A stretch of 51,206 nucleotides of DNA, from positions 1 through 51,206 of the forward strand of contig JAIEQN010000060.1 in assembly GCA_019747685.1 (NCBI GenBank). The letters run 5' to 3'. The notes below the pieces were generated by a model. It had not been told where the DNA came from, did not search any database, and worked only from the letters and a program-made list of their open reading frames with translations. The stretch comes from Gemmataceae bacterium. GTDB lineage: Bacteria > Planctomycetota > Planctomycetia > Gemmatales > Gemmataceae. A program made the translations under genes and the position numbers. Shown here piece after piece: positions 10,849 through 40,697 of the stretch. Numbering within the stretch: the stretch's first letter is position 1; each line of letters opens with the position of its first letter.

Positions 10849-11520
10849 TCAGCGGAAGGTGACGATCTCGTCGAGCGGCTTCTTGGTGATCTGCGGTACC
10901 TTCGCGTCGTCGGCCGGGTAGCCGACGACGAGCAGCAGGAACGGCCGCTCGTGGGCCGGGCGGCCGAGCAGGTCGGTGAGGAACCCCATCGGGCTGGGGG
11001 TGTGGGTGAGCGTGGCCAGCCCGGCGTGGTGCAGGGCCGCGATCAGGAACCCGGTGGCGATGCCGACCGACTCCTGGGCGTAGTAGTGCTTGACGGTCTT
11101 GCCGTCGGGGGTGAGGCCGTGCGGCTGCACGAACACGGCGATCAGATACGGGGCCGCCTCCAGGAACGGCTTGTCCGCGTCGGTGCCGAGCGGGGCCAGT
11201 GCGGCCAGCCACTCTTGCGGTGCGCGGCGGGCGTAAAACTCCCGCTCCTCCTCTTCCGCGGCGACCCGGATGCGGGCCTTCAACGCCGGGTCCGACACGA
11301 CCACGAACTGCCACGGCTGAAGGTTCGCCCCGCTCGGCGCGGACCCGGCCGCCCGCAGGCTGTCCTCGATAACGGCCCGCGGCACCGGCCGTGACGAGAA
11401 GTGGCGGACGGTGCGGCGGCGACTCAGGTCGGCGTGGAACGCCGCCGCCCTCCGGGCCATCTCCTCGGCGGGGTACTCGACGAACGCGAGCGGGTCGAAC
11501 GTCGGTTCGGGCATCGCCAC
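10849..11520 (-). CDS. Nitroreductase family protein, iodotyrosine deiodinase-like
   Basis: [70 protein letters not shown]. Confidence 0.9.
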
Positions 11521-11547
11521 CCTCTCCCGGTCGGGCCACCGGATCGA

Positions 11548-12132
11548 CTACTTCTTCTTCAGTGCTTCGGCCGCCTTCACCAACTCAGCCACCGAGTGCC
11601 GCTCCTTGTACCCGTCCACGAACAACTTCGCGCGGACCACGCCGTCCGCATCGACCAGCAGCGTACCGGGGTACGGCACCCCGTCGAGGTCGACTTTGCC
11701 GAACGTCTTCCCGACCGTCTCCTTGTTCTTCAGCGCGTAGGCGGTGATCGTCTTGCTGTCCGGGTCGGAGAGGAGCGGGAACGTGATTTTCTGTTTGTCC
11801 GCGAACGCTTTCAGCACGTCCACCGGGTCGTAGCTGACGCCCACCACCTTCACCCCCGCCGCTTCGATCGCCTTCAGGTCGCGTTGCAACTGGACCAGTT
11901 GCTTCTGGCAGTACGGTCACCAACTCGCCGACCGGTAGAACACGAGCGCGACCGGACCGCTCTTGAGCAAGGCGGCCAGTTCCTGCTCCTCGCCGGACTG
12001 GTCCTTCAGCTTGAACGCCGGGGCCTTTTCGCCCACCTTGATGCCGGTCTTCTCCGGGGGCGGGTCGGCCGCCGGGGCGGCCGCCGACAGTGCGACGGCC
12101 AGGCCGAGCGCACATGTGATCACACGGTTCAC
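11548..12132 (-). CDS. Exported peroxiredoxin-like (AhpC/TSA, redoxin) selenoprotein; TGA at 11917-11919 read as Sec
   Basis: ORFs 11917-12132 and 11548-11889 are in frame and read FYRSASW-U-PYC-QKQLVQLQ. Signal peptide present; SECIS-like hairpin downstream. Confidence 0.9.
11886..11902 (-). promoter_or_regulatory. Bacterial SECIS-like hairpin
   Basis: GCAACUG-GUC-CAGUUGC perfect 7-bp stem starting 14 nt after the UGA. Confidence 0.75.
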
Positions 12133-12243
12133 TGTAAGTTTCCTCCGGTCGGGACCGACAAATGGACCGGGACCGCCCCGGCACCCCCCGTTATACTCAT
12201 GCGGGCGACGACCCTGTCACCCGCGTTCATCCCCGAGGGACGT

Positions 12244-13641
12244 ATGCGTCATTCGCTTCTGGCGGTGCCGGCGGCGGTCCTACTTTCCCAGCTCGCGCTC
12301 GGCCAGACGCCCAAGGTCGGCGACCGGCACCCCGACTTCACCCTGCCGGACGTCGCGGGCGGCAAGCCGAAGACCCTGTCCGACTTCCGCGGCAAGAAGG
12401 TGCTGCTCGTCCAGTTCGCGTCGTGGTGAGCGGGCTGCCGCTAGCACGTGCCGGTCTGGCACGACGCGACCAAACAGTGGGCGACGGACGGCAAACTCGT
12501 CCTCCTCGGCGTCACCCAGGAGCAGCACCCGGAGCGGTGCCGGCTGTTCGCCCAGTGGAAGGGGTTCGGCTGGCCGATCCTGCACGACCCGATCAACGTG
12601 TTGGGGTCGGCGGCGGTGCCGGTCGTGCTGGCCATTGATGAGCACGGGATCGTCCGCTCCACCCGCCCCAACCCGAAGACGTTCGCGGCCGACTTCCTCG
12701 ACAAGGCGTTCGCCGACGACGCCACCAACAAGCCGGTCCCGCCCACCCCGGCCCACCCGCCGAAGTTCGACGACCTGAAGGCGGCAGCCGAGGCGGCGAA
12801 GACGGCGGACGCCTGGCGGCGGTACGGCGACACCCTCGCCCTTTGGGGTGGCGAAGAGAAGTTATCAGCGGCCATCGCCGCGTACCGGCAGGCGGTGACG
12901 CACGACCCGAAGGACGGGCCGGCGTGGTTCCGGTCGGGCGTGTGCCTGCGGCGGCGGTCCGAGACCACGGCCCGCGAGGCGGACGACTTCCGGGCGGCGG
13001 TGGCGGCGTGGGGGACGGCCCTCGACCTCGACCCGAACCAGTACATCTGGCGGCGGCGGATCCAACAGTACGGCCCGCGGCTGGACAAACCGTACCCGTT
13101 CTACGACTGGGTGCCGGACGCCGAGGCCGCCGTCCGCAAGCGGGGCGAGACGCCGGTCGCCCTCCCCGTCCGCCCGGACGGGTCCGAGATCGCGCAACCG
13201 GCGAAGGCGTTCGCCGCCGTGAAGGACGCGCCGACCAACCCGGACCCGAAGGGGAAGGTGAACCGGGATCCGGGTTCGGTGACGTGCGAGGTCGTGGTGG
13301 TGCCGGCGGTGGTAAAGCCGGGGCAGTCGGTTCGCGTCCACCTCACCTTCCGCGTCGCGTCGATGAAAACCGACCACTGGAACAACGAGGCCGAGCCGCT
13401 GCGGGTGTGGGTCGATCCGCCGGCCGGGGTGGCCGTCCACGAGCGACTGATCGCGGCCGAGCGGCCGAAGGCGGCGACTTCAACCGAACCCCGGACCGTC
13501 GGGTTCGAGGTGCAGGTGCCGAAGGACGCCGCGGGCACCATCCGGGTGCCGGTCTACGCTCTGTACCACCTGTGCGACGAGGTGGGCGGAACGTGCCGGT
13601 ATGTCCGCCTCTACGCGACGGTCGAAGTGAAAGTGAAGTAA
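12244..13641 (+). CDS. Exported TlpA/redoxin-TPR-DsbD(N)-like selenoprotein; TGA 12427-12429 (Sec) and in-frame TAG 12442-12444 (possibly pseudogene)
   Basis: MRHSLLAVPAAVLLSQLALG signal; PDFTLPD..LSDFRGKKVLLVQFASW-U-AGC-R-*-HVPVW, continuous in frame with ORF 12448-13641. TPR-like helices; C-terminal YHLCDEVGGTCRY. Confidence 0.8.
12447..12463 (+). promoter_or_regulatory. Bacterial SECIS-like hairpin
   Basis: CGUGCCG-GUC-UGGCACG (6 Watson-Crick pairs plus G-U) starting 17 nt after the UGA; same loop as the partner gene. Confidence 0.7.
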
Positions 13642-13647
13642 ACTCGT

Positions 13648-14253
13648 TTATGTCCGACGGAGGTCTGCAAGTTCGGCTTCGAGCGCACTGATCCGCTGCC
13701 GCAGTTGCTCCATCACCGGAGCAACTTGCCGGCGTGAATACCGCTTGTGGATGTGCTGCGGGCAGTTCACGTCCCACGCCTCGACGGCGAACACGATCGC
13801 CCGCTCCACCCGGCCCGGGTACGCCGGGTCGCTCAGCTTCGCCAGCAGTTCGGAATCGCCCTCCACCACCGTCGCGGTCCCCCACACCTTCACCCGCCGG
13901 CTGTTGGCGTAGTCCATCAAGAACAGGATCGCCTTCGGGTTCTCGGACAGGTTGCCCACCGAGATGTACTGGCGGTTGCCGCCGAAGTCGGCGAACGCCA
14001 GGGTGCGGCCGTCGATCACTTTCAGGAAGCCCGGCGGGCCGCCGCGGTACTGGATGTATGGCTGCCCCTCGGCGTTCGCCGTGCCCAGGTAGAACATGTC
14101 GAGGTCGGCGAGGAACTCCGTCAGGTCCGAGGTGACGGTCGTTTGCCACCCGTCGGTCTGTTCCATCCGGGCGTAGTTCTTCCGGGATCCTTTCTGGTGT
14201 TGGATCGCCTTCACGGCGGGGGTGAAGGCGATGTCGCTGGGGAGGTGGCTCAT
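13648..14253 (-). CDS. Pyridoxamine 5'-phosphate oxidase family FMN-binding protein
   Basis: IAFTPAVKAIQ, PYIQYRGGPPGFLKV, ADFGGNRQYISVGNL, WDVNCPQHI. Confidence 0.9.
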   Translation of the reverse strand: MSHLPSDIAFTPAVKAIQHQKGSRKNYARMEQTDGWQTTVTSDLTEFLADLDMFYLGTANAEGQPYIQYRGGPPGFLKVIDGRTLAFADFGGNRQYISVGNLSENPKAILFLMDYANSRRVKVWGTATVVEGDSELLAKLSDPAYPGRVERAIVFAVEAWDVNCPQHIHKRYSRRQVAPVMEQLRQRISALEAELADLRRT

Positions 14254-14300
14254 CGGATGGCCTCGGTCGGGTGCGTCACGGGCGTGGTGTGAAATGTGGG

Positions 14301-14328
14301 ACCGCCGCCGAAGTGCTTCGGCGGCGGT
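14301..14328. terminator. Perfect 13-bp inverted repeat (intergenic hairpin)
   Basis: ACCGCCGCCGAAG-TG-CTTCGGCGGCGGT between the hydrolase stop and the PNPOx gene. Could be a terminator or an mRNA-stabilising hairpin. Confidence 0.5.
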
Positions 14329-14337
14329 TCGGGGGCG

Positions 14338-15273
14338 TTACTTGACGTGCTTCCCGAGGAACTCCCGCATCAGCTTGGCGATCTCGTCGCCGTTCGTTTC
14401 CAGGGCGAAGTGCCCGGCGTCGAGCAGGTGGTACTCCAGCGTTTTCAGATCCTTCTTGTACGGCTCGGCCCCGGCGGCGGGGAAGATCTGGTCGTGCTGG
14501 CCCCAGGCGATCAGCACCGGCGGCTGGTGCTGGCGGAAGTACGCTTGCCACCTCGGGTAGAGCGGCGGGTTGCTGCCGTAGCTCAGGAACAGGTCGAGCT
14601 GGATGTCGGCGTTCCCGTCGCGGTCGAGCAGGTACTGGTCCGTCGTCCAGGCGTCGGGCGACACCAGTTCGGCGTTCTTCACCCCGTGCGTGTACTGCCA
14701 CTTGGTCGCGTCGAGTTTCGTGAAGCCCCGGAGCGCCTCCCGCTTGTCCTTGCTCGCCGGCTCCTTCCAGTACGCCTTGATCGGCTTCCAGAAGTCGTTG
14801 TCCAGGCCCTCGTCGTAGGCGTTGCCGTTCTGCACCACGACGGCCGTGACCCGCTCCGGGTGCTTCACGGCTAGTCGGTAGCCGACGGGTGCTCCGTAGT
14901 CCTGCACGTACAGGGTGTACTTCTTGAGGTCCAGCTTCTCGGTGAACTGATCGACGACCTCGGACAGGTGGTCGAAGGTGTACGCGAACTTGTCGCGGGC
15001 CGGCATCGAGCTGTGCCCGAAGCCGGGGTAGTCGGGGGCGATCACGCGGTACTTGTCCGCCAGTTGCGGGATCAGGTTGCGGAACATCTGCGAGCTGGTC
15101 GGGAAGCCGTGCAGGAGCAGCACGACGGGGGCGTCCTTCGGGCCGGCCTCGCGATAGAAGATGTCCAGGTCGCCGACCTTCACGGTCTTGTGGTGCGTCT
15201 TCGGCGGTTCGGCCGCGGCGACCGAGGAGAGTGTGATGGCCAAGCTGGCCAGAAGCAGTGCGGTGCGAAACAT
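14338..15273 (-). CDS. Exported alpha/beta hydrolase (epoxide hydrolase/dehalogenase-like)
   Basis: Signal peptide; [19 protein letters not shown] (Asp nucleophile), DAGHFALE. Confidence 0.92.
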
Positions 15274-15315
15274 GGGTCGGTCTCCGATTGAGTGGTTGAG
15301 TTTGTGGGTTGTGAG

Positions 15316-15783
15316 TTACTTCACGTCCGGGATGCCGGGGTGGTCCGCCGGGCGCGGGCCCGGCGCGGGCCAGAAGAACGTCCGCTCGCCCTCGCGGATG
15401 GCGACATCGTTAATGCTCGCCTCGCGGCGACGCATCAGCCCGCGGTCGTCGAACTCCCATAGCTCGTTGCCGTAGCTACGGGACCAGTTCCCCGCCGCGT
15501 CGTGCCACTCGTACCGGAACCGCACCCCGATGCGGTTGTTGGTGAACGCCCAGAGCGCCTTCACCAACCGGTAGTCGAGTTCGCGGTCCCACTTGCCGGT
15601 GAGGAACGCCCGGATCTCGTCGCGGCCGACGAGGAAGCGGTCGCGGTTGCGCCACACCGAGTCCTCGGAGTAGGCGAGCGCCACCCGGTTCGGGTCGCGG
15701 GAGTTCCAGGCGTCCTCGGCGAGCCGCACTTTCCGGGTCGCGGTTTCGAGGGTGAACGGCGGGACGAGGAGTGTTGCTGTCAC
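15316..15783 (-). CDS. DUF1348 / SnoaL-like NTF2 family protein
   Basis: [58 protein letters not shown] start after CAGGAG. Confidence 0.92.
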
Positions 15784-15800
15784 GGTAGTCTCCTGGTGCG

Positions 15801-16340
15801 TTACGCCAGGGGTTCGGCCTTGGGGAAGTCGATGTCGGTGTCGGCGACGTGGTTGAAGTAGTTGGTGAGCACGTTCAGCGCGACGTGGGCGACGACCTCG
15901 GCGATGGCCCCGTCGTCGTGCCCGGCCTCGCGGACCGTCTGGAGGTCGGCCCCCGACACCCGGCCTTTGGTGTCCACGACCGCGCGGGCGAAGCGGACGA
16001 GGGCGTCGGCCTTCGGTTCCACCACGGTGCCGCGGCGGCTGTCGCGGATCTGGTCGGCGGTCAGCCCGGCCATCTTGCCGAGGGCGGTGTGGGCGGCCAG
16101 GCAGTAGTCGCACCCGTTCGCCTGGGCGACGGCGAGGGCGATCTGCTCGCGGGTCTTGGCGGGCAAGGCACCCTGGGCGAGCGAGCCGCTCAGTTGGAGG
16201 TAGCCGTTGAGGGCCGCCGGGGCGTTGGCCATCGCCCGGGTCATGTTCGGGACGAGGCCGAGTTTGCCCTTCACGGCGTCGAGCAGTTCCTTGGCCTTGC
16301 CGGTGGCGGACTCGGGGGCGATCTGGGTCAGGCGGGACAT
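15801..16340 (-). CDS. Carboxymuconolactone decarboxylase / AhpD-like protein
   Basis: [41 protein letters not shown]. Confidence 0.92.
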
Positions 16341-16407
16341 GGTCGTCGTCCTATCGAGGTCGGGTGGCGGATCGCTCAGGGAGTTCTGGGCGATTGGAGC
16401 AGTGAGA

Positions 16408-16425
16408 AATCAGCTTCCGTGCCAA
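16408..16425 (-). promoter_or_regulatory. Putative sigma-54 -24/-12 promoter for the CMD operon
   Basis: TTGGCAC-GGAAG-CTGA on the minus strand: canonical -24, non-canonical -12. Confidence 0.55.
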
Positions 16426-16493
16426 AATGGACAATATGTCGCAAAGCATTTAATTGCAGTGCTTTATGTAAAGAACACTTGAAATGCAGCCGG

Positions 16494-16546
16494 CACGATT
16501 TTTCGTGAATCGACGAGATTTCGTATCTGAGGCACGATTTTTCGTA
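16494..16546. promoter_or_regulatory. Three palindromic enhancer (UAS) sites, ACGA-N4-TCGT
   Basis: 16495-16506, 16513-16524 and 16534-16545, between the divergent CMD and activator genes. Confidence 0.7.
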
Positions 16547-16556
16547 AATCAGCCGC

Positions 16557-18161
16557 ATGGAACTGCCACTCACCTCGTCCCTCTTCACCGACCCGAAACG
16601 ATTGCTGCTGGACCTGGCGAAAGAACACCACCTGTCCGAACTCCTGCGACTGCTGGTCAACCGTCTGGCTGACTCGCCGCGGGTGGCGCTGGCTCGGGTC
16701 TGGCTCGTTCGGCCGGGGGACATCTGTGACGCCTGCCCGATGCGGGGAGAGTGCCCGAACCGCGACCGCTGCCTGCATCTGGTGGCGAGCGCGGGTCGCT
16801 CGAAGGCCGCCCCGGCCGAAGAGTGGACCCGGCTGGACGGCGCGTTCCGCCGGTTCCCGCTCGGGGTTCGTAAGGTCGGGCGCATCGGGGCGAGCGGGGA
16901 GTCGATCGAGGCTCCCGACCTGTCGGCGGGTACCCCGGACTGGATCGCCCGACCGGAGTGGCTCCGGGCCGAAGGGGTCAGCGGCTTCGGCGGGCAACCG
17001 CTCGTCCACCGCGGCGAGACGCTCGGCGTCCTGGCCGTGTTCGCCCGCGGCCCCATCGGCCCCGAGTGCATGGACTGGCTGCGGACGATCGCCGACCACA
17101 CGGCCGCCGCCATCGCCACGGCCCGGGCGTTCGAAGAGGTCGAGGCGTTGAAGAAGCGGTTGGAGTTGGAGAACGAGTACCTGCGGGAGGAGGTCACCCG
17201 GAGCGGCGCGTTCGGCGAACTGGTCGGCCAGAGTCCGGCGTTGGAGGCGGTATCCCGGCAGATCGACCTGGTGGCCCCGACCGACTCGGCCGTCCTCATC
17301 CTGGGTGAAAGTGGGACCGGGAAGGAACTGGTCGCCCGCGAACTCCACCGCCGCAGTCGGCGGGCGGCCAAACCGCTCATCAAGGTGAACTGCGCCGCGA
17401 TCCCCCGCGAACTGTACGAGAGCGAGTTCTTCGGCCACCTGAAGGGGTCGTTCACCGGGGCGACGCGGGACCGCGTCGGGCGGTTCGAACTGGCCGACAA
17501 CGGCACACTCTTTCTGGATGAGATCGGGGAGATCCCGCTGGACCTGCAAGCGAAGCTGCTCCGGGTGCTCCAAGAGGGGGAGCTCGAACGCGTCGGTGAG
17601 GAGAGGACTCGGAAAGTGGACGTGCGGGTCGTGGCGGCGACCAACCGCGACCTGAAGGCGGAGGCCGAGGCGGGGCGGTTCCGGCAGGACCTCTACTACC
17701 GCCTGAGCGTCTTCCCGGTCGAACTGCCACCGCTGCGGAAGCGGCCCGAAGACATCCCACTCCTGGCCGACCACTTCTTGACCCTGCTGTGCCGGAAACT
17801 CGGCCGGCCGAAGCCACGCCTGACGCTGGCGAACGTCCAGACCCTCCAGAAGTACCCCTGGCCGGGAAACGTGCGGGAACTCCAGCACGTGATCGAGCGG
17901 GCGGTCATCACCGCCGAGGGCGGACGCTTGGCCATCGAATTGCCCACCGCATCGCCCCCGGCCGGCCGAGTCTCACCAACACCCGCGGCGAACCGGATCT
18001 TGACCGACTCCGAGTTACGACAGTTGGAGGCGGACAACATTCGGGCGGCGCTGAAGCAGGTGAAGGGCAAGGTGTCTGGCACGGGCGGGGCAGCGGAGTT
18101 GCTGGGGATGAAAGCCACCACGCTGGCATCGCGGATCAAGTCCCTCGGCATCACGGAGTGA
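16557..18161 (+). CDS. Sigma-54-dependent enhancer-binding protein (GAF-AAA+-HTH) with Cys-rich insert
   Basis: GESGTGKE, GSFTGA, LFLDEIGE, RFRQDLYYRL, WPGNVRELQ; GAF region with CDACPMRGECPNRDRC. Confidence 0.95.
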   Translation: MELPLTSSLFTDPKRLLLDLAKEHHLSELLRLLVNRLADSPRVALARVWLVRPGDICDACPMRGECPNRDRCLHLVASAGRSKAAPAEEWTRLDGAFRRFPLGVRKVGRIGASGESIEAPDLSAGTPDWIARPEWLRAEGVSGFGGQPLVHRGETLGVLAVFARGPIGPECMDWLRTIADHTAAAIATARAFEEVEALKKRLELENEYLREEVTRSGAFGELVGQSPALEAVSRQIDLVAPTDSAVLILGESGTGKELVARELHRRSRRAAKPLIKVNCAAIPRELYESEFFGHLKGSFTGATRDRVGRFELADNGTLFLDEIGEIPLDLQAKLLRVLQEGELERVGEERTRKVDVRVVAATNRDLKAEAEAGRFRQDLYYRLSVFPVELPPLRKRPEDIPLLADHFLTLLCRKLGRPKPRLTLANVQTLQKYPWPGNVRELQHVIERAVITAEGGRLAIELPTASPPAGRVSPTPAANRILTDSELRQLEADNIRAALKQVKGKVSGTGGAAELLGMKATTLASRIKSLGITE

Positions 18162-18351
18162 TCTGCGACATGAAAACGAGCGGAGAATGGTTCAAGATGT
18201 TGGTCCGGATCGACTACCGCCATTCGGGCGCACGGAGTGGAATCGGCTCGACGCGAATGGCCAGGAGGTACGGATTGTGCTCCTCCGGTGGGGAGTCCCC
18301 AGGCGCTCCCATCTCTGCCACATAGGTATCAGCACCGTCGCCGGCTTGCAA

Positions 18352-18632
18352 TTACCCACAACTTGCCGTGTTCAGTTCGGCACCGAGCAGGACATCGGCG
18401 AGGCGGGTGATGCCGCGCCAGACGACCATGTTGCCGGGCGGTGGGTCCTTCGTCCGGACCAGGTAGCCACCCAGTTTGGCCACCGCCAACAGGTAGTGGG
18501 CGATCGTCCGCTCGGATGCCGGTGGCGGGCAGCCGGCGAGGCGGTCGAGGACGGCGACCTCGGCCGGGGTGAAGGCCACCTCGGGCGGGCGCTGGGGGCC
18601 ACCCGGCGGGTCATCGTCAGCCAGAACACCCG
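18352..18632 (-). mobile_element. IS4 (Tn5/IS50-like) transposase C-terminal remnant
   Basis: VFWLTM..., AVAKLGGYLVRTKDPPPGNMVVWRGITRL..CG*. Confidence 0.8.
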
Positions 18633-19048
18633 CCACCCGCCACCGGTCCCGGACGTACTTGGCGACCTTCGGGCCGGTCCACAGCCCGCCGTCGGGCGGT
18701 CGCTCCTGGAGGGCCGCGTACAGGGCGGCCCGCCGCCGGGCGGTCAGTTTGGGGTCGGCCCCGTTGTCCTTCCGGCGGTCGGCCACCCCGTCGGGGCCGT
18801 GGTCGTTCCACCGGTGAAGGACGGCCCGGACCGTCACCGCCGACAACCCGACCACGTCGGCGACCTCGGACGGGTTCCGGGGCGCGTCCACCCGGGCGAG
18901 CAGCCAGAGTGCGTGCCACCGGGGCTTCTCGACCGGGTGCCGGCAGGTCCGGTACTTGTACCGCAGCTTGCCCACCGGCAGGTGCCGGACGAACGGCAGG
19001 CGTCGCATGGGATTCCCTCCCCTGACTCCGGATTGCGGAATCAGAGTA
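18633..19048 (-). mobile_element. IS630-family winged-helix ORF remnant with left end
   Basis: RWHALWLL, TVRAVLHRWNDHGPDG, PPDGGLWTGPKVA. Probable end at TA 19047-19048; fused in frame to the IS4 remnant. Confidence 0.75.
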
Positions 19049-19105
19049 GGGAATCAACACCATCCGGTATGACCCCACCCCCAACACCCGAACCGGACAC
19101 TCCCC

Positions 19106-20039
19106 ATGACCGCCTTCGTTCGCTCCCTGTTGATCGCGGCCGCCCTCACCGGCCCGCTGCTCGCCGCCGAACCACCGAAGGTCCACCACAAGACGGTGAA
19201 GGTCGGCGACCTGGACATCTTCTACCGCGAGGCCGGGCCGAAGGACGCCCCCGCCGTCCTGCTGCTGCACGGCTTCCCGTCCGGCTCGCAGATGTTCCGC
19301 AACCTCATCCCGCAACTGGCCGACAAGTACCGCGTGGTCGCCCCGGACTACCCCGGCTTCGGGCACAGCTCGATGCCGAGCCGCGACAAGTTCAACTACA
19401 CCTTCGATAACCTCGCTGATGTGGTCGAGCAGTTCACCGAGAAAGTCGGGCTGACGAAATACGCCCTGTACGTGCAGGACTAATGCGCACCGGTCGGCCA
19501 CCGGTTGGCCAGCAAACACCCCGACCGCGTCACGGCCATCGTGGTGCAGAACGGTATCGCCTACGACGAAGGGCTGGACAACGACTTCTGGAAACCGCTG
19601 AATGCGTACTGGGCGGATCCGAAGAACGAGAAGCTTCGTGAGGCGCTGCGGCAGTTCACCAAACTGGAAGCCACCAGGTGGCAGTACACCCACGAGCTGA
19701 AGAACCCGGAACTGGTGTCGCCGGATGCGTGGGTCACGGACCAATACTTCCTCGACCGCGACGGGAACGACGACATCCAGCTCGACCTGTTCCTGAGCTA
19801 CGGCAGCAACCCCCGCTGTACCCGAAGTGGCAGGCGTACTTCCGCACGCACCAGCCGCCGGCCCTGATTGTGTGGGCAAGCACGACCAGGTCTTCCCCGC
19901 CGCCGGGGCCGAGCCGTACAAGAAGGACCTGAAAACGCTCGAGTTCCACTTGCTCGACGCCGGCCACTTCGCCCGCGAATCCCACGGCGACGAGATCGCC
20001 GCCCTGATGCGGGCGTTCCTCGCCAGGCACGTTCGGTGA
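19106..20039 (+). pseudogene. Alpha/beta hydrolase, disrupted paralog of 14338-15273
   Basis: Near-identical peptide blocks ([23 protein letters not shown]). TAA at 19481-19483 replaces Tyr of QDYG; frameshifts near 19812 and 19877. Confidence 0.9.
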
Positions 20040-30175: not shown

Positions 30176-31765
<1,590 letters not shown>

Positions 31766-31774
31766 GGATGGCTC

Positions 31775-31831
31775 TCCCAGGAAGATGGGATCGCACATCC
31801 TGAGATTATGGGAAATCCCAAAATAATGGGA
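31775..31831. promoter_or_regulatory. Three palindromic enhancer (UAS) sites, TCCCA-N6-TGGGA
   Basis: TCCCAGGAAGATGGGA at 31775-31790, TCCTGAGATTATGGGA at 31798-31813, TCCCAAAATAATGGGA at 31816-31831. Confidence 0.7.
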
Positions 31832-31898
31832 GCGCCACATTGTCCACTGAGGTGACGCAAGCCTCTACCGGGATGTTACTTGTAGCAAAGTTTCGGCG

Positions 31899-31915
31899 TT
31901 GGCACGTGGCGTGTA
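31899..31915 (+). promoter_or_regulatory. Putative sigma-54 promoter for the second CMD operon
   Basis: TTGGCAC-GTGGC-GTGT: canonical -24, non-canonical -12, about 70 bp from the UAS. Confidence 0.5.
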
Positions 31916-31970
31916 TTCGGTGGAAGCACCCGGCTAGCGGGAACCCGACTTCAGTACAAGGAGAACGACC

Positions 31971-32516
31971 GTGCCTCGCATCCAACCGATCGACCCGGCG
32001 ACCGCCACCGGCGACGCCAAACCGCTGCTCGACCAAATTCAGAAGAGCTTCGGCATGGTGCCGAACCTGATGCGGACATTCGCCGTGTCCCCGGCCACCC
32101 TGAGCTTCTTCCTCCAGGCGACCGCCGCCCTGTCCAAGAGCACCCTCGGGCCGAAGGTCCGCGAGCAAATCGACCTGGTGGTGTCCGAGCGGAACGACTG
32201 CGGCTACTGCCGGTCGGCCCACACCGCCATCGCCAAGAAGCTCGGGCTGACCGACGCCCAGGCCGAGGACGCCCGCCGAGGCCGGTCGGACGACGCCCGG
32301 ACGGACGCCGCCCTGAAGTTCGCCGCCGCCGTGATCGACCGCAAGGGTCATGTGACCGACGCCGAGCTGGCCGCCGTCCGAGCCGGCGGGCTGACCGAAG
32401 GCGAGGTCGCCGACGTGATCGCCATGGTCAGCCTGAAGGTCTTCACCAACTACTTCGGGCACGTCGCCCAGCCGGACATCGAGTTCCCGGTCGTCCCCAA
32501 GCTGGCCGCGGCGTAG
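31971..32516 (+). CDS. Carboxymuconolactone decarboxylase / AhpD-like protein
   Basis: FGMVPNL, REQIDLVVSERNDCGYCRSAH, TNYFGHVAQPDIEFP; AAGGAG RBS. Confidence 0.92.
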   Translation: MPRIQPIDPATATGDAKPLLDQIQKSFGMVPNLMRTFAVSPATLSFFLQATAALSKSTLGPKVREQIDLVVSERNDCGYCRSAHTAIAKKLGLTDAQAEDARRGRSDDARTDAALKFAAAVIDRKGHVTDAELAAVRAGGLTEGEVADVIAMVSLKVFTNYFGHVAQPDIEFPVVPKLAAA

Positions 32517-32551
32517 CCGGCCCTTACCCGCAGCACCCCTGGAGAGCAGTC

Positions 32552-33283
32552 ATGGCGCTGGACATGAGGCGGGTCGAGGCCCGGCTGGGCGAGCTGTACG
32601 CCCGACACCACGGGGACGGGGTGAACGCGGTGGCCGCCGCGTTCCGGGACTACTTTACCGGCGAGGTGTTCCCCTCGGCGGTGAACGCGGCCATGCAACG
32701 GGGGCTGGACAGCCTGACGGCTGCCCGGCTCGCGGCCCGGGCGGCGAAGCCCGGGGACCGGGTGCCGGACTTCGAGCTGCCGGCCGCGGCCGGCGGGTCG
32801 GTCCGGCTCTCCGACCGGCTCGCGGCCGGCCCGGTGGTGCTGGTGTTCTACCGCGGCGGGTGGTGCCCGTACTGTAACCTACACCTGAACATGCTCCAGC
32901 GACTGTTGTCTGAGTTCCGGGCCGCAGGGGCAACCTTGGTCGCCGTTTCCCCGCAAGACCCGGACCACTCGCTGACCACGGCCGAGACGAACGGCCTGGG
33001 GTTCGAAGTCCTGTCCGACCCGGCCAACCAGGTGGCCCGGGCGCTCGGGCTGGTGTTCCCGTTCTCCGACGAGCTGCGGACTACATACCTGGGCAACGGG
33101 GTGGACCTGCCGGCGTTCAGCGGGTCAGCCCGGTGGGAGCTGCCGATGCCCGGGACGTTCGTGATCGCCCCCGACGGGATGGTCGCGGCCGCCTGGGTGG
33201 ACGAGGACTACCGCACCCGGGCCGAGCCGGCCGCGGTGCTGGCCGCGGTCCGCCGGCTGCCAGCCCTGGGCGCCACGCCCTGA
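32552..33283 (+). CDS. Peroxiredoxin-like AhpC/TSA family protein
   Basis: PVVLVFYRGGWCPYCNL, WELPMPGTFVI, DYRTRAEP. Confidence 0.92.
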   Translation: MALDMRRVEARLGELYARHHGDGVNAVAAAFRDYFTGEVFPSAVNAAMQRGLDSLTAARLAARAAKPGDRVPDFELPAAAGGSVRLSDRLAAGPVVLVFYRGGWCPYCNLHLNMLQRLLSEFRAAGATLVAVSPQDPDHSLTTAETNGLGFEVLSDPANQVARALGLVFPFSDELRTTYLGNGVDLPAFSGSARWELPMPGTFVIAPDGMVAAAWVDEDYRTRAEPAAVLAAVRRLPALGATP

Positions 33284-34441
<1,158 letters not shown>

Positions 34442-34497
34442 CCCGTCGTCCGACGCGATCGCGGCGTGGCGGATCAGGATGCGGTGGCAGTGGGCGT

Positions 34498-35859
34498 CTA
34501 CTTCGTCGCCGCACCGGGCATCGCCGGCATCGCCAACGGCCCGGGGGCGGTCAACCCACCGGCTTCCGGCTGTCGGGTGTCGATCGCCGGGCCGTTCCGC
34601 TCCTCGGTCAGGGTCGTGCCGAACCGCTCACGCACGGTCTCCCCGGTCCCCGCCCCGGGCGGCGTCGACCGCCACGCCCGGCCGCCGACCGCCAGTTGGT
34701 ACCCCTCGCCGTAGAGGCGGGTGAGCGGCCCCGGCTCGAACTCGGTGGCCGACTTGGGGGCGTCGAACCCCTCCGGGATGGCCGTCTGCCGGTACTCCAT
34801 GCCGGCCAGCAGGCAGCCGGTGTAGATGCGGAGCAGGTCGCCCCGGGTCTGGGCGTAGATGACGGCCGACACGCTGCTGCCGGCGATCCCCAGCGCGCCC
34901 GTCTTGAGCGGGGCCGGGTCGGCGTACAGCTTGCCGGCCACCACGCACCACACCCGGGTGCCGGCCAGCGCCGTGCCGTTCGCCATGACGCCGGCGTCCG
35001 GGTGGTACGGCGGGCGGAAGAACAGGCCCTGGCTCACCCCCCCGTCCCCGTGCTTCTCCACCAGTTGTCGGCCGTCCACCGTCACCGGGATGTCGCTGTG
35101 CGGGAAGAACCCGGGGATGGCCGACGACCCCAGCAGGATCCGTTTGACCAGCTCCCGGCCGGCGGGTCCGTCCCGGACGGCGATGGCCCCGAGGTCCCAC
35201 ACCACGAACCGCTTGCCCTCCAGATCGGTGGTGCCGACATAGAGCCGGCGGCCTTTGCGGTGTTCGGCCGCCAGCTCGGCCATCAGCTCCGGCGTCAGGC
35301 TGCGGTCGATCCGACCGGCGAGCGGCGAGTTGTCGGCCAGGGCACCGATGAACAGCCCACGGACCGGCCGGCTGGTGTAGATGTCGGAGGTGCGGACGTC
35401 GGTGTAGAACCGCTTCAGGTCGGCGTCGTACTTCGGCCCGAGGAACGCCAGCGGGGCGATCAGCGCCCCGGTGCTGATGCCGGTCACCACGTCGAACTCG
35501 GGGCGGGTGCCGGCCGCCGTCCAGCCGACCAGCACCCCGGCGGTGAACGCCCCGTAGGAGCCGCCGCCGGACAGACAGAGGACGTTCTTGGGGCGCCGGC
35601 TCGACCGCCCCGGGTCGGCCCGGTCCGCCCGCTCGACCGCCATCCGCCGCACGTCGTCGGCGACCATCACCAGGTTGTTGACGTTGTACAGGGCGTCGGC
35701 CTCCCGCTGGGCCGGCGGGTCGATCAGGTCGCGGCTGTTCAACCCCACCTCGGCCGGGGTCGGAAAGCGGGCGGACGGGTCGCGGCTCCCGACGCAACCG
35801 GTTACCGCCGCAAGCAGCGAGAGGGCTGTCAGGCGGGGGACAGCCGTGCGGGATGACAT
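34498..35859 (-). CDS. Patatin-like phospholipase lipoprotein
   Basis: Lipobox VTGC; LSGGGSYGAF, GISTG, DGG. Confidence 0.9.
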   Translation of the reverse strand: MSSRTAVPRLTALSLLAAVTGCVGSRDPSARFPTPAEVGLNSRDLIDPPAQREADALYNVNNLVMVADDVRRMAVERADRADPGRSSRRPKNVLCLSGGGSYGAFTAGVLVGWTAAGTRPEFDVVTGISTGALIAPLAFLGPKYDADLKRFYTDVRTSDIYTSRPVRGLFIGALADNSPLAGRIDRSLTPELMAELAAEHRKGRRLYVGTTDLEGKRFVVWDLGAIAVRDGPAGRELVKRILLGSSAIPGFFPHSDIPVTVDGRQLVEKHGDGGVSQGLFFRPPYHPDAGVMANGTALAGTRVWCVVAGKLYADPAPLKTGALGIAGSSVSAVIYAQTRGDLLRIYTGCLLAGMEYRQTAIPEGFDAPKSATEFEPGPLTRLYGEGYQLAVGGRAWRSTPPGAGTGETVRERFGTTLTEERNGPAIDTRQPEAGGLTAPGPLAMPAMPGAATK

Positions 35860-35914
35860 GGGGCCTCCGGTAACAGCGGCCGGGACTGGTGTCAACCCCA
35901 CCCCTCCCGGCCGC

Positions 35915-36469
35915 TCACCGCGGCCGCGGGGCCGGCTCGGCCAGCAGCCCGTCGATCAGGCCGGTCAACTTCTTGTAGCCGGCGTCGCCGAGTTCGCCCT
36001 CCCAGGGGTGGCGGACGGTCCCGGCCTTGTCCACAAGGTAGACGCACGGCCAGTAGCGGTTCCGCCACGCCTTCCAGGTGGCCCCGTCGTTATCGACGGC
36101 CACCGCGAAGGTCAGCTTGTTCTTGGCCATCCGCTCCTTGATCCGGTCCACGTCCTTCTCGGCGTCGAACTCCGGGGTGTGGACGCCGACCAGCAGCAGC
36201 CCCTTGTCGTCCTTGTACCGGTCCTGCCAGGCCCGGTAGTGCGGGTAGTTGTGGACACAGTTGATGCACCCGTTTGTCCAGAAGTGGAGGACCACGACCT
36301 TCCCCTTCTGGTCGGACAGCTTGAGCGGTTTCGTATTCACCCAGCCCGTCACCCCGTCGAATTCCGGGGCCGGCGTCGGCCGGTCGGCTCCGCCGGCCGG
36401 GGCGGTGCAGAGGACGGCCCAAATCCCGAGACCGACCGTCCCGGCCGCGATCACCCACTTGACGGACAT
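35915..36469 (-). CDS. Exported redoxin (DipZ/TlpA-like thioredoxin fold)
   Basis: Signal peptide; WVNTKPL, HFWTNGCINC, GVHTPEF, NRYWP. Confidence 0.9.
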   Translation of the reverse strand: MSVKWVIAAGTVGLGIWAVLCTAPAGGADRPTPAPEFDGVTGWVNTKPLKLSDQKGKVVVLHFWTNGCINCVHNYPHYRAWQDRYKDDKGLLLVGVHTPEFDAEKDVDRIKERMAKNKLTFAVAVDNDGATWKAWRNRYWPCVYLVDKAGTVRHPWEGELGDAGYKKLTGLIDGLLAEPAPRPR

Positions 36470-36485
36470 GGCGTGCTCTCCGTGT

Positions 36486-36517
36486 GACGGCCGGACGGCC
36501 GGACGGCCGGACGGCCG
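36486..36517. repeat. Tandem repeat (GACGGCCG)4
   Basis: Four perfect 8-mers in the divergent intergenic region, just upstream of the redoxin RBS. Confidence 0.85.
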
Positions 36518-36645
36518 GTCGGGTTGGATGCCGGCGGCGGGTGCCGGGTTACGCCCGGCCAGGGAACCCGGCCTCGCCGCCGGCCGACGGTCCGGGTATG
36601 TGTGCGCCGGTGACGACCGACACGCCGGCCGAGACGGGTCCGTCC

Positions 36646-37494
36646 ATGCCGCGGACGCTCTATCTGATGCTCGCCGCACTCGCCGTCGCGGCCGGCGGGT
36701 GCCAATCGGTGGAACGGCACCTCGTCTTCCGCCCGACGCACACACCCGAGCCGTCGGACGGGGCGGCCGGCATCCCGCTGTCGGGTACCGCCCCGGACCG
36801 GCGGGCGTACCCGCTCGACCTGACGACGGCCGACGGGACGCCGGTGCGGGCGTGGTGGTGTCCGGTCCCGGGGGCCGGCGAGGCGGTCCTGTACTGCCAC
36901 GGGAACGCCGGCGACCTGTCCGACCGGGCCGAGCCGGTGGCCCGGGTGATGGCCGAACTCGGCCAATCGGTACTGGTGTTCGACTACCCGGGGTACGGGG
37001 GGAGCGGCGGGCGGCCGTCGGAGGCCGGGTGCTATGCCGCGGCCGACGCCGGGTACGACTGGCTGACGGCTAACGGGTTCCCGGCCGACCGGGTCACGCT
37101 CGTGGGGGTGTCGCTCGGCGGCGGGGTGGCGGTAGACGTGGCCTCCCGCCGGCCGGCCCGGGCGGTGGTCCTGGTCAAGACGTTCACGAGCGTCCCGGAC
37201 GTGGCCGCCCACCTGCTCCTCGGCCTGCCGGTCCAGCCGCTGGTGCGGACCCGGTTCGACAGCCTGGCCAAGATCGGCCGCTGCCCGCAGCCGACGTTCG
37301 TCGCCTCCGGCACGAAGGACCGGCTGATTCCATTCCGACAGGGCGAGCGGCTGTTCGCGGCCGCGGCCGGCCCGAAGCGGTTCCACCCGATCGCCGGCAG
37401 CGACCACGACGACCCGCTGACGGCCGGCTTCTTCGCCGCCCTCCGGGACTTCCTGGACACGGCCGCCACGCTCCCGGCCGCCGGTGGCCCGTAA
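36646..37494 (+). CDS. Alpha/beta hydrolase lipoprotein (ABHD13/17-like)
   Basis: Lipobox AGGC; YCHGNAG, DYPGYGGS.GRPSEAG, GVSLGG, GTKDRLIP. Confidence 0.9.
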   Translation: MPRTLYLMLAALAVAAGGCQSVERHLVFRPTHTPEPSDGAAGIPLSGTAPDRRAYPLDLTTADGTPVRAWWCPVPGAGEAVLYCHGNAGDLSDRAEPVARVMAELGQSVLVFDYPGYGGSGGRPSEAGCYAAADAGYDWLTANGFPADRVTLVGVSLGGGVAVDVASRRPARAVVLVKTFTSVPDVAAHLLLGLPVQPLVRTRFDSLAKIGRCPQPTFVASGTKDRLIPFRQGERLFAAAAGPKRFHPIAGSDHDDPLTAGFFAALRDFLDTAATLPAAGGP

Positions 37495-37544
37495 CCGGCC
37501 ACGGGGGCGGGGCATCCAACCCGCACACAACTGGGGAACCGCCC

Positions 37545-38213
37545 GTGATCCGACGACTTGCGTGGCTGACCATCGCCGGCCTGACCGCGGCCGGCGTGCT
37601 GCTGGCCGTCCCCCGCCGGGCGTTCACGCCGCCGGCCGACTTTCCCGCCCCCGAGCCGGCCGCGGTCGACCCGGACGAGCCGACGGTCGCCACCTTCGGG
37701 GCCGGCTGCTTCTGGTCCACCGACGCGCTGTTCCGCCGGGTGAAGGGTGTGACGGGGGTGGCGTCCGGTTACAGCGGCGGCACGGCCGCGGACGCCACGT
37801 ACAAAACGGTGTGCGGCGGCGGCACCGGCCACGCCGAGGCGGTGCAGGTGAGGTTCGACCCGGCCGTGGTGAGCTACCCGGAACTGCTGCACGTGTTCTG
37901 GCGGTCGCACGACCCGACCACCCCCGACCGGCAGGGGGCGGACGCCGGCCCGCAGTACCGTTCCGTGGTGTTCGCCCACTCCAACCGCCAGCGGGAGCAG
38001 GCCGAGCGGTACAAGGCGGCCATCGACGCGGCCGGCGTCTACCCCGACCCGGTGGTGACGGTGGTGGTGCCGTTCGCGGCGTTCTACCCGGCCGAGGGCG
38101 AGCACCAGGACTACTTCGCCAACAACCGCCGGGCCGGGTACTGCCGGGCGGTCATCGCCCCGAAACTGGACAAGTTGCGGGCGGTGTTCGGCGACAAGCT
38201 GCAGCCCGAGTGA
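37545..38213 (+). CDS. msrA: Peptide-methionine (S)-S-oxide reductase with N-terminal anchor
   Basis: GAGCFW, SGYSGG, TGHAEAV, HDPT, QYRS, FYPAE..HQDY, GYC. Confidence 0.93.
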   Translation: MIRRLAWLTIAGLTAAGVLLAVPRRAFTPPADFPAPEPAAVDPDEPTVATFGAGCFWSTDALFRRVKGVTGVASGYSGGTAADATYKTVCGGGTGHAEAVQVRFDPAVVSYPELLHVFWRSHDPTTPDRQGADAGPQYRSVVFAHSNRQREQAERYKAAIDAAGVYPDPVVTVVVPFAAFYPAEGEHQDYFANNRRAGYCRAVIAPKLDKLRAVFGDKLQPE

Positions 38214-38730
38214 CCCGCCGGCCGAGGGCCGTCAGGGCCGCCCCGGCGGCCAGCCCCTGGGCAAGTGGCAGGTCGGTGCGGGTGGCGACGGCGTGTGCTA
38301 CCCGCAGCGGCCAGAGGTGGCGGTCTTCGGCCGGCACCCACTCGACCCACTCGATCAGGTCTCGACCGATCACCGCGCCGGCCACCACCAGCGCGGCCAG
38401 AAACAGGACGACGCCGGCCGGTCGGACCATCCCCGGCCGTAGCCGACGGACGGCCCAGACACCGGCCCCCAGCCCGACCGCCCACAGCAGGTGGACGGCC
38501 AGGAGGGGCGGCAGCGGCGGGAAGCAGCCCCACATGCCGCACAGCGACTCGCCCACGTCCAGCGGCAGGGCGGCCACGGACACGGCCCCACCGGCGGCGG
38601 CTAGCCAGCCGGCGGCCGCCCACAGCGGCCCCCGCCAGGCGTGCCACCGGCAGCCGGCCGGGCAAGGGGAATCGGGGACGTCGGACACGGCGGCACTCGG
38701 ATGAGGGGTAAGCAGACGGCTCTCGGCCAT
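38152..38730 (-). CDS. Hypothetical membrane protein (about 4 TM)
   Basis: Hydrophobic helices and a LCGMWGC motif; the 3' end overlaps msrA. Confidence 0.55.
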   Translation of the reverse strand: MAESRLLTPHPSAAVSDVPDSPCPAGCRWHAWRGPLWAAAGWLAAAGGAVSVAALPLDVGESLCGMWGCFPPLPPLLAVHLLWAVGLGAGVWAVRRLRPGMVRPAGVVLFLAALVVAGAVIGRDLIEWVEWVPAEDRHLWPLRVAHAVATRTDLPLAQGLAAGAALTALGRRVTRAAACRRTPPATCPVSGR

Positions 38731-38792
38731 CTATACCCGGACGAGGCGGCGATCAAAGAACGGTGTGCCTCGCACCCGAACGGGAGAGCATC

Positions 38793-39320
38793 ATGACGAG
38801 TCGATCGGTGGCGGGCGTCACGCTGGCGCTCGGCGTGGCGGTGGGCCTGGCGTACCTGGTGAACGGCCCGCTGTCGGTGCGGCCGGCACGTGAGGTGCCG
38901 TCACCAACCCTGCCGCCCGGCGAGCGGGTGGAGCTGGCGGACAGCGAATGGCGGACGCGGCTCAGCCCCGAGGCGTACCGGGTGACCCGCCGGGCCGGCA
39001 CCGAGCGGCCGTTCCGCGGGGCGTTCTGGGATCACCACGCCGACGGGGTGTACCACTGCGTGGGGTGCGAACGGCCGCTGTTCGACTCGGCCGCCAAGTT
39101 CGACTCCGGCACCGGCTGGCCGAGCTACTGGCGGCCGGCCAGCCCCGCCGCCGTCGCCCTGCACGAGGACCCGGACGGCTCCCGCACCGAGGTACTGTGC
39201 CCGCGGTGCGACGCCCACCTGGGGCACGTGTTCGACGACGGCCCCCGGCCGACCGGGATGCGGTACTGTATGAACTCGGCAGCTATGACGTTCACCCCCC
39301 GCGCCGCGGAGGGGAAGTGA
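38793..39320 (+). CDS. msrB: Peptide-methionine (R)-S-oxide reductase with N-terminal anchor
   Basis: GTERPF, YHCVGC, KFDSGTGWPSY, CPRCDAHLGHVFDDGP.PTGMRYCMNS. Confidence 0.95.
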   Translation: MTSRSVAGVTLALGVAVGLAYLVNGPLSVRPAREVPSPTLPPGERVELADSEWRTRLSPEAYRVTRRAGTERPFRGAFWDHHADGVYHCVGCERPLFDSAAKFDSGTGWPSYWRPASPAAVALHEDPDGSRTEVLCPRCDAHLGHVFDDGPRPTGMRYCMNSAAMTFTPRAAEGK

Positions 39321-40144: not shown

Positions 40145-40156
40145 GCCGGGCCGCAG

Positions 40157-40558: not shown

Positions 40559-40697
40559 GACGAGTCTCCAGGTCCGTTGGTCGGGAGTGGAGCCGGCCTG
40601 GACTGCCAACGGGGCGTTCCGGGCCGGCGGGTTCGAAGGCCGGGCCGCCGGCGAACAGCGCTGCTTGCCGCTTCGGCGATCGACCCCGGCGGGCGAG

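What the first reader, a model, noticed from the sequence alone, without database searches (positions are those of the whole stretch)
11548..13641. Back-to-back pair of exported thioredoxin-fold selenoprotein genes with matching SECIS hairpins
Seen: two divergent genes about 110 bp apart are each split by an in-frame TGA exactly at the first position of a CxxC-type motif (SASW-U-PYC; FASW-U-AGC). Both start with signal peptides. Each TGA is followed by a 7-bp hairpin with the same G-GUC loop (GCAACUG-GUC-CAGUUGC; CGUGCCG-GUC-UGGCACG). Known: the E. coli fdhF SECIS has an apical GGUC(U) read by SelB, and Cys versions of the fold occur in this window (WCPYC at 32552, QCPLC at 43423). Inference: this is a co-regulated periplasmic selenium-dependent redox module that standard gene callers split into four ORFs.
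Basis: partly seen in the sequence, partly recalled or inferred. Interest (0 to 1): 0.85.

Follow-up and report, generated by a model that had tools for sequence, protein, structure and literature searches.

The report
Selenoprotein gene pair, one freshly broken
Two back-to-back genes that annotation cuts at a UGA "stop" likely encode exported selenocysteine redox proteins, but in this strain the larger gene also carries a second, ordinary stop mutation, so only the smaller one would be made whole.

Summary
Both in-frame TGAs sit at the first position of a UxxC motif, both hairpins exist, and the genome holds selA, selB, selC and selD. Gene A (11548-12132, minus; redoxin/Prx-like): TGA in 25 of 26 homologous loci, Cys in 15 of 29 full-length database homologs, compensatory synonymous changes in the hairpin. 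Gene B (12244-13641, plus; TlpA-like + TPR + Ig-like Cys-pair domain): TGA in 78 of 78 loci. However, this copy of B has a second in-frame stop (TAG, 12442-12444) five codons later. It is CAG (Gln) in runs from two other studies, so B is a strain-level nonsense allele here. The pair is one clade's arrangement (10 of 80 B loci) with a conserved palindromic -10-like site, not a phylum-wide module. New here: stop-free B homologs without Sec also lack the distal Cys pair (0 of 8 keep both, against 134 of 135), which points to an internal redox relay. This genome's selA has an unresolved frameshift. UxxC redoxins are a known kind. I found no catalogue entry for B's architecture, but this scan has reported the B family several times on other DNA.

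The parts
11548..12132 (-). Gene A: 194-aa exported redoxin/Prx-like (AhpC-TSA) protein with a U72-P-Y-C75 motif; intact apart from the Sec codon
   Evidence: (PF00578 119.7 bits, PF08534 75 bits)
11917..11919 (-). In-frame TGA of gene A, inferred Sec72
   Evidence: TGA in 25 of 26 distinct homologous loci; Cys in 15 of 29 full-length protein homologs
11886..11902 (-). SECIS-like hairpin of gene A: 7 bp, loop GUC 22 nt after UGA
   Evidence: 98.3% of cells paired in 25 homologs, two pairs with compensatory synonymous changes, 0 of 500 shuffles as high
12142..12146 (-). GGAGG ribosome-binding site of gene A
   Evidence: sequence
12190..12197 (.). GTTATACT: candidate shared (bidirectional) -10 element; TATACT on plus, TATAAC on minus; exact palindrome AGTATACT in relatives
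   Evidence: no sigma-70 -35/-10 pair found
12244..13641 (+). Gene B: 465 codons; signal-like N-terminus, TlpA/ResA-like thioredoxin domain (U62-A-G-C65), TPR-like helices, Ig-like C-terminal domain. Broken in this strain by a TAG at codon 67
12427..12429 (+). In-frame TGA of gene B, inferred Sec62
   Evidence: TGA in 78 of 78 loci covering the site (2 of 80 do not cover it)
12442..12444 (+).
   Evidence: T in runs X1 and X3 (study P1; X1 may be the source); C in X2 (P2, depth 514) and X4 (P3); sense codon in 78 of 78 homologs
12447..12463 (+). SECIS-like hairpin of gene B (GUGCC/GGCAC core, GGUCU loop)
   Evidence: Val69 is GTG in 77 of 78 homologs (entropy 0.10 against median 1.64 of 15 conserved Val columns); stem of 5 bp or more in 75 of 76 distinct homologs
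13234..13638 (+). Ig-like beta-sandwich of gene B with invariant Cys444 (13573-13575) and Cys451 (13594-13596); likely DsbD-N-like

Best explanation
Both TGA codons likely encode selenocysteine, read with the help of the downstream hairpins, in two predicted exported thioredoxin-fold oxidoreductases; gene A would give a full 194-residue UxxC redoxin, whereas gene B in this strain is cut by an in-frame TAG that is a Gln codon in other strains. Mechanism (inferred): SelB binds the hairpin and delivers Sec-tRNA. Both proteins leave the cytoplasm on an N-terminal signal peptide. A reduces envelope disulfides or peroxides through a selenenylsulfide/selenolate cycle. Intact B, found in relatives, would be a two-centre relay. 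Its DsbD-N-like Ig-domain Cys pair would take electrons from a membrane DsbD/CcdA-type protein and re-reduce the UxxC centre of its TlpA-like domain, with the TPR helices holding client proteins. In one Gemmataceae-like clade the two genes sit head to head on a redox-gene island and are likely transcribed from one overlapping bidirectional -10 element. B is dispensable there: nonsense allele here, destroyed in a congener. Shown: codons, conservation, hairpin covariation, Sec genes, predicted folds, the TAG polymorphism. Inferred: Sec insertion, export, chemistry, electron flow, promoter activity.
For: Sec machinery: selA 507.6 bits, selB 379 bits, selD 381 bits, tRNA-Sec(UCA) 72.3 bits, all over cut-off. 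Gene A: TGA in 25 of 26 loci, the exception (L031) being a decayed copy with TAA and other stops. Full-length protein homologs have Cys 15, Trp 13 (all JGI records, probably TGA read under code 4; not verified) and Ser 1; 91 of 120 hits start downstream of the site. Hairpin covariation. Gene B: TGA 78 of 78. All 120 best protein hits cover at most 86% of the query, and 142 of the 150 best 50%-cluster representatives do not cover the site. 28 of 29 phylum genomes with B have selA, against 198 of 271 without B (Fisher p 0.003, kin not independent), and the exception has selB. A hairpin at the modal position occurs in 73% of homologs, against a median of 15% at 400 codon positions. Hydrophobic leader in 71 of 76 B homologs, against 52 of 595 control windows. 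Relay: both C-terminal Cys are kept in 134 of 135 N-truncated representatives that cover them, and in 0 of 8 stop-free ones (7 Ser, 1 Cys at the Sec site), which fall in 4 separate places on a FastTree tree. HHalign of the Ig domain with 12 planctomycete DsbD_N domains: 80.9%, E 1.2e-5, Cys pair aligned, 20 column shuffles at most 3%. Two DsbD_TM genes in this genome. TAG allele.
Against: No protein, RNA or 75Se data. This assembly's selA has a frameshift near residue 403 of 455, and no laid contig covered the site; if real, neither gene would be decoded here. Hairpin energies are not better than shuffles. The QLVQLQ peptide makes a hairpin easy to form with common codons. Solved DsbD-N structures are not among the listed matches of three fold searches; the best are generic Ig folds, Z 10.9. 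Only 1 of 73 members hits PF11412 (E 0.07), and the Atlas row with 11% DsbD_N scores 0.86, a lead only. The Sec-less homologs are divergent, so loss of the Cys pair may reflect general loss of redox function. The leftward -10 in this strain is imperfect (TATAAC), and the palindrome could be inherited within one clade.
Confidence: 0.82

Rival explanations
1. This strain is losing selenium use altogether: the selA frameshift is real, so neither TGA is decoded and the TAG in B is a neutral follow-on mutation.
For: selA is in two frames, with a 4-nt insertion against congener G078. B is broken here.
Against: Depth at the selA site is about 1 in X1 and about 0 in X3 and no contig bridges it, so an assembly slip is plausible. 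selB, selC and selD read intact. Gene A and three CFY-U genes with GGUC-loop hairpins look intact around their TGA. 136 of 150 family genomes keep selA.
Confidence: 0.12
2. The genes are real selenoprotein genes but only neighbours that travel together on an island; they do not work as a module.
For: Divergent pairing in 10 of 80 B loci, all among the closest relatives. A without B in 12 of 15 family genomes, and B without A in 4 of 7 (some at contig ends). Both in 1 of 300 phylum genomes, on different contigs. G078 keeps A and has B split and mostly deleted. Integrase and IS fragment in the window.
Against: The spacer palindrome is kept while the rest of the spacer has 36% mean column identity. 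Both genes are exported UxxC proteins. All 3 family genomes with both genes have them head to head. This rival is compatible with the core of the best explanation.
Confidence: 0.5
3. The TAG in B is also read through (pyrrolysine or an amber suppressor), so both proteins are full length.
For: The frame stays open and conserved after the TAG.
Against: The TAG is a single C>T difference from other strains and never occurs in 78 homologs. No PylS over the cut-off (23.9 against 178 bits). The only CUA 'tRNA' call arose at a lowered threshold and is an inverted repeat.
Confidence: 0.03
4. The TGAs are true stops (conserved split genes), or are read as Trp or Cys rather than Sec.
For: 13 JGI records show Trp at the site. 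Databases hold the downstream fragments as proteins.
Against: The site aligns with the attacking Cys of CxxC. The stop is TGA and never TAA or TAG in 78 of 78 B loci. The hairpin covaries. Carriers hold Sec genes. ARAGORN lists one tRNA with a UCA anticodon, the tRNA-Sec. TGA ends ordinary genes in this genome.
Confidence: 0.03

Closest known systems
'Prx-like thiol:disulfide oxidoreductase' (PF00578, UxxC) and 'Redoxin family protein' (PF08534, UxxC) selenoproteins, Table 1 of PMC13188914
   Same: Gene A: same Pfam families over cut-off, UxxC motif, Cys homologs, and a hairpin fitting the bSECIS model (3-9 nt loop, G in the first two loop positions, 16-37 nt from UGA).
   Different: Gene A has a leader peptide. 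Whether it is the same subfamily as the listed representatives was not tested. Below cut-off for every NCBIfam model hit (best selenoprotein-related hit NF040769, 56.3 against 120).
[quoted passage not shown]
   Same: Gene B's N-domain is TlpA/ResA-like. NF041054 is its best NCBIfam hit and spans residues 28-275; all 53 aligned members hit it.
   Different: Score 62 against cut-off 300; the motif is W-U-A-G-C, not U-G-C; B adds an Ig-like domain with an invariant C-x6-C. No row seen in the table names a Trx+TPR+Ig/DsbD-N architecture.
[quoted passage not shown]
   Same: Ig-like fold with a Cys pair in a late beta-hairpin; profile match to planctomycete DsbD_N domains. That DsbD-N reduces TlpA/CcmG-type partners is recalled knowledge.
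   Different: Here the domain is fused to its presumed partner and has no membrane domain; spacing is C-x6-C; solved DsbD-N was not among the fold-search rows. TsoB has Sec in another setting (UxxxxU).
Bacterial bidirectional promoters with a shared -10 element (PMC12825309)
   Same: Divergent genes with one pseudo-symmetric -10-like site in the middle of the spacer.
   Different: No TSS data. A start 7 nt from each hexamer would put the starts about 21 bp apart (my estimate), whereas 18, 10 and 23 bp are reported as common.

Membership tests
Bacterial selenoprotein gene (general) | In-frame UGA aligned to a catalytic Cys of homologs | tested here: met
   A: 15 Cys of 29 full-length homologs. 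B: 1 Cys (CxxS) of 8 stop-free homologs; the site aligns with the CxxC of ResA/TlpA-type proteins by family match.
Bacterial selenoprotein gene (general) | UGA conserved in homologs | tested here: met
   25 of 26; 78 of 78
Bacterial selenoprotein gene (general) | [quoted passage not shown] | tested here: met
   Loops at +22 and +25; -9.2 and -18.6 kcal/mol for the 46-nt segments; covariation and synonymous constraint; model from PMC13188914 Fig. 2 legend
Bacterial selenoprotein gene (general) | selA, selB, selC and selD in the genome and intact | tested here: inconclusive
   All four present over cut-off; selA has an unresolved frameshift in this assembly
Bacterial selenoprotein gene (general) | Open frame apart from the Sec codon | tested here: not met
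   Met for A. Not met for this copy of B (TAG at 12442), though met in 6 of 6 family homologs that cover the site.
Bacterial selenoprotein gene (general) | Selenium incorporated in the protein | not testable with these tools
   needs 75Se labelling or mass spectrometry
PF00578/PF08534 redoxin (gene A) | Score over the Pfam gathering cut-off | tested here: met
   119.7 against 26; 75 against 26.6
True peroxiredoxin (gene A) | PxxxT/SxxC peroxidatic motif (recalled) or an NCBIfam Prx model over cut-off | tested here: not met
   Motif is RSASW-U-PYC; NF006960 71 against 140, NF053650 49.8 against 260
NF041054 ResA-like WAxxUGC (gene B) | WAxxUGC motif and score of 300 or more | tested here: not met
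   FASW-U-AGC; 62.2 bits, 59.8 for the intact homolog
TlpA/ResA-like thioredoxin domain (gene B N-domain) | Thioredoxin fold of ResA/DsbE type | tested here: met
   PF00578 50.4 and PF08534 42.3 bits over cut-off; Foldseek top rows are DsbE/ResA-type, TM by target 0.70-0.81 (model of homolog L034)
DsbD N-terminal domain PF11412 (gene B C-domain) | Ig-like fold with a conserved Cys pair in a late beta-hairpin | tested here: met
   AF2 pLDDT 94.8 all-beta model; C444 and C451 invariant
DsbD N-terminal domain PF11412 (gene B C-domain) | Sequence or structure match to DsbD-N | tested here: inconclusive
   HHalign 80.9%; Pfam 1 of 73 at E 0.07, under cut-off; not listed in fold searches
Exported (Sec-pathway) protein | Cleavable signal peptide | tested here: inconclusive
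   Hydrophobic leader in both genes and in 71 of 76 B homologs; no predictor available

The most novel reading that the evidence does not exclude
Gene B defines an uncatalogued, almost Sec-only family (474 clusters at 50% identity with E below 1e-30; named loci from Planctomycetota, Acidobacteriota, Gemmatimonadota, Verrucomicrobia and others). It would be a self-contained periplasmic selenium relay: a DsbD-N-like Cys pair fused to, and recycling, a UxxC TlpA domain. In one clade it is co-transcribed from a single palindromic -10 element with a second exported selenoprotein that it may also reduce.
Probability: 0.35. Interest if true: 0.68.

Novelty: new variant of a known kind. Interest (0 to 1): 0.45.

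Why it matters
Exported selenoproteins of aerobic planctomycetes are mostly invisible because databases store them as fragments: 91 of 120 gene-A hits and 142 of 150 gene-B representatives lack the active site. B has almost no Cys version, so Cys/TGA-pair filters are prone to miss it (limitation stated in PMC12013277). The joint loss of Sec and a Cys pair some 380 residues away gives a direct biochemical test of a fused DsbD-N/TlpA relay. Gene A gives a clean case of a bacterial SECIS held by compensatory synonymous codon swaps. For this genome, the practical point is that B is a nonsense allele, so experiments should use an intact strain or homolog.

Tried and rejected
Folding z-scores of the hairpins against shuffles were uninformative. 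The sigma-70 promoter and terminator scan found nothing in 11400-13800. No RNA holder was listed for the stretch, so expression was not tested. Laying contigs on selA did not cover the frameshift. Fold searches of the Ig domain gave generic Ig folds and did not list DsbD-N; the PDB sequence search gave one weak row (E 0.17). PF11412 was not found in this genome at E 0.001. The selA co-occurrence test within the family has little power (all 19 carriers selA-positive, base rate 136 of 150), so I repeated it at phylum level. Pyrrolysine/amber read-through was rejected. Clustering flank ORFs of the 80 B loci gave no widely shared neighbour other than gene A (12 of 81 loci, window included); the other large clusters were alternative frames of B or A. 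A codon-score scan for other Sec genes was dominated by true stops (145 candidates, output cut). The first tree run did not finish; FastTree was used on 143 of 150 representatives, 7 dropped for low coverage, without the two redox sites. Literature searches found no paper describing the B architecture; supplements were not read, and subscription papers are not covered.

Full report
Observation. Gene A runs 12132 to 11548 on the minus strand (GTG start behind GGAGG) and reads FYRSASW-TGA-PYC. Gene B runs 12244 to 13641 on the plus strand and reads FASW-TGA-AGC. The gap is 111 bp. Both hairpins are as described, with loops 22 and 25 nt after the UGA.

The TAG. Contigs of four public runs were laid on the stretch. 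X1 (possibly the source) and X3, both from study P1, carry T at 12442. X2 (study P2, depth 514) and X4 (study P3) carry C, giving CAG (Gln); X2 differs from the window at 7 listed places in 2401 bases and X4 at 6. None of 78 homologous loci has a stop there. There is no PylS over cut-off. So this is a recent nonsense allele of one strain, and B would end after 66 residues here. B is also broken elsewhere: 2 of the 80 loci are interrupted (L104, L105), and in the closed same-genus genome G078 only residues 20-61 and 434-465 remain, on either side of an inversion, while A is intact.

Sec machinery. selA, selB, selD (Cys form) and tRNA-Sec(UCA) all score over cut-off in the genome (97% complete, 1193 contigs). 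selA changes frame near residue 403 of 455. No laid contig bridges that site, where depth falls to about 1, so error or mutation cannot be told apart. selA is in 136 of 150 family genomes. In a phylum sample, 28 of 29 genomes with B have selA, against 198 of 271 without B (Fisher p 0.003; kin inflate this). The exception has selB.

Gene A. PF00578 and PF08534 score over cut-off; no NCBIfam model does. It is found in 15 of 150 family genomes. Of 26 distinct homologous loci, 25 have TGA and one decayed copy has TAA. Of 120 protein hits, 91 begin after the site; the 29 full-length ones have Cys 15, Trp 13 (all JGI; read-through under code 4 is my inference) and Ser 1. In the 25 TGA homologs the stem is paired in 98.3% of cells. 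Two pairs show double changes (AU/GC 8, CG/UA 5) made by synonymous codon swaps; 0 of 500 shuffles reach this, and slid registers pair 0-39%. Relatedness inflates that test, and the QLVQLQ peptide favours a hairpin anyway.

Gene B. 361 candidate stretches in the genome collection encode a relative. Of the best 80, 78 cover the site and all have TGA. The closest named loci are Fimbriiglobus, Gemmata and Limnoglobus, which places the window near Gemmataceae (inference). Val69 is GTG in 77 of 78 (entropy 0.10 against a median of 1.64 over 15 Val columns). A stem of at least 5 bp is found in 75 of 76 distinct homologs, and a subgroup of 17 uses a shifted register with a UGC loop. The AF2 model of an intact homolog (L034, 76% identical; pLDDT 93.9, pTM 0.90) has a thioredoxin domain matching ResA/DsbE structures, TPR-like helices and a beta-sandwich. 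The sandwich holds invariant C444 and C451. It matches 12 planctomycete DsbD_N domains by HHalign at 80.9% with the Cys aligned (shuffles at most 3%). However, Pfam is under cut-off and three fold searches list only generic Ig folds, so 'DsbD-N-like' is likely, not shown. A profile search found 474 clusters at E below 1e-30; of the best 150, 142 do not cover the Sec site and 8 are stop-free. Seven of the 8 have Ser at the site and one has Cys (CxxS). None keeps both distal Cys (7 have neither, the Cys form has one), against 134 of 135 truncated representatives that cover them (7 do not cover them). The 8 fall in 4 places on a tree built without the redox sites (one clade of 5 at support 1.0 and three singletons with moderate support). 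This co-loss is the best evidence that the two centres work together.

The pair. A divergent A lies next to B in 10 of 80 loci, all among the closest relatives, plus one tandem case; flanks were at most 3 kb and some end early. In the family sample 3 genomes have both genes, 12 have A only and 4 have B only. In the phylum sample B is in 29 of 300 genomes, A-like genes in 3, and both in 1. The spacer of paired loci is divergent (36% column identity) but keeps a central AGTATACT in 7 of 10, with near variants in 2 more and in the window; TATACT is upstream of 0 of 65 unpaired B genes. This reads as a -10 hexamer on both strands, as in bidirectional promoters (PMC12825309, passages seen). It is untested, and shared ancestry is an alternative. 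The surroundings look like a mobile redox island: integrase at 466-1683, IS fragment at 18352, nitroreductase, two AhpD-type genes, three Cys redoxins, MsrA and MsrB, and GC 0.67-0.68 at 9-21 kb against 0.72 for the genome.

Mechanism. Shown: codons, conservation, covariation, Sec genes, predicted folds, the TAG allele. Inferred: SelB-dependent Sec insertion; export (hydrophobic leader in 71 of 76 B homologs against 52 of 595 control windows); A acting as an envelope thiol-disulfide reductase; intact B passing electrons from a membrane DsbD/CcdA protein (two PF02683 genes here) through the Ig Cys pair to its UxxC. DsbD chemistry and the peroxiredoxin motif are recalled knowledge.

Comparison with what is known. 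The 2026 catalogue (PMC13188914; parts 1, 2 and 4 of 10 read, plus passages covering the head of Table 1) lists UxxC Prx-like, redoxin and cd02966 selenoproteins, so A is a new member of a known kind. No row seen names a Trx-TPR-Ig protein, and B fails NF041054 (62 against 300). Five paper searches found no description (listings and abstract starts only). PMC12013277 (passages) notes that families lacking Cys homologs can be filtered out. Supplements were not read and could list such sequences. Eight earlier findings of this scan on other genomes share words with B and describe the same family, so the family is not new to the scan. The nonsense allele, the spacer palindrome and the hairpin covariation of A were not in the lines shown.

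Verdict. Real selenoprotein genes of a known kind, with an uncatalogued three-domain variant. The 'working module' claim fails for this strain. Interest 0.45.

Noticed in passing
G000:C1171:20224-20232 (L001 about 1501-1509): selA changes frame near residue 403 of 455 (4-nt insertion against G078); assembly slip or real mutation unresolved.
   Followed up: partly
G000:C148:1428 (-), C938:4011 (+), C1106:13002 (-): Three paralogous CFY-TGA-(L/M)GH genes, each with a GGUC-loop hairpin 27 nt after the TGA: likely CxxU AhpD/CMD-type selenoproteins (family name recalled).
   Followed up: no
G000:C1166:10416 (+), C109:864 (+), C463:1568 (-): Further Sec candidates: MT-TGA-GGC and MT-TGA-ATC (metal-binding-type UxxC), and LRHLA-TGA-IPC with a 7-bp hairpin.
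   Followed up: no
window 11400-13800 in runs X2 and X4: These runs hold the locus at about 99.7% identity, but no long near-identical contig of this genome's selA region was listed (X4 has a 92% piece). This is a weak hint that the locus is shared between species; holes prove nothing.
   Followed up: partly
L164 (G078:C1:3559000-3571000): In this closed congener the block matching window 13543-18313 is 90% identical and inverted relative to gene A; one breakpoint falls exactly at gene B's TGA codon, with a GA microhomology.
   Followed up: partly
window 18352-19867: An IS-like HTH fragment followed by a second, split copy of the alpha/beta-hydrolase gene at 14338-15273 (85% DNA match in G078 comparison).
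   Followed up: no
window 30176-45756: Second redox cluster: sigma-54 activator, AhpD-type gene, three Cys redoxins (WCPYC, CINC, QCPLC), MsrA, MsrB, NDH-2-like protein and two cytochrome P460 genes.
   Followed up: no
L053, L054, L058, L062, L074-L087 group: 17 gene-B homologs with AVPAW/TVPVW/AVPVW use a shifted hairpin register (8 bp, loop UGC at +20) in place of the GUGCC/GGCAC stem.
   Followed up: partly
L071:1554-2021 (-): Another TGA-containing redoxin (VYGDT-TGA-PVC) lies upstream of a gene-B homolog.
   Followed up: no
P0283, P0295, P0306, P0356, P0358: A clade of Sec-less (SxxC) gene-B homologs without the distal Cys pair, possibly non-redox TPR scaffold proteins.
   Followed up: partly
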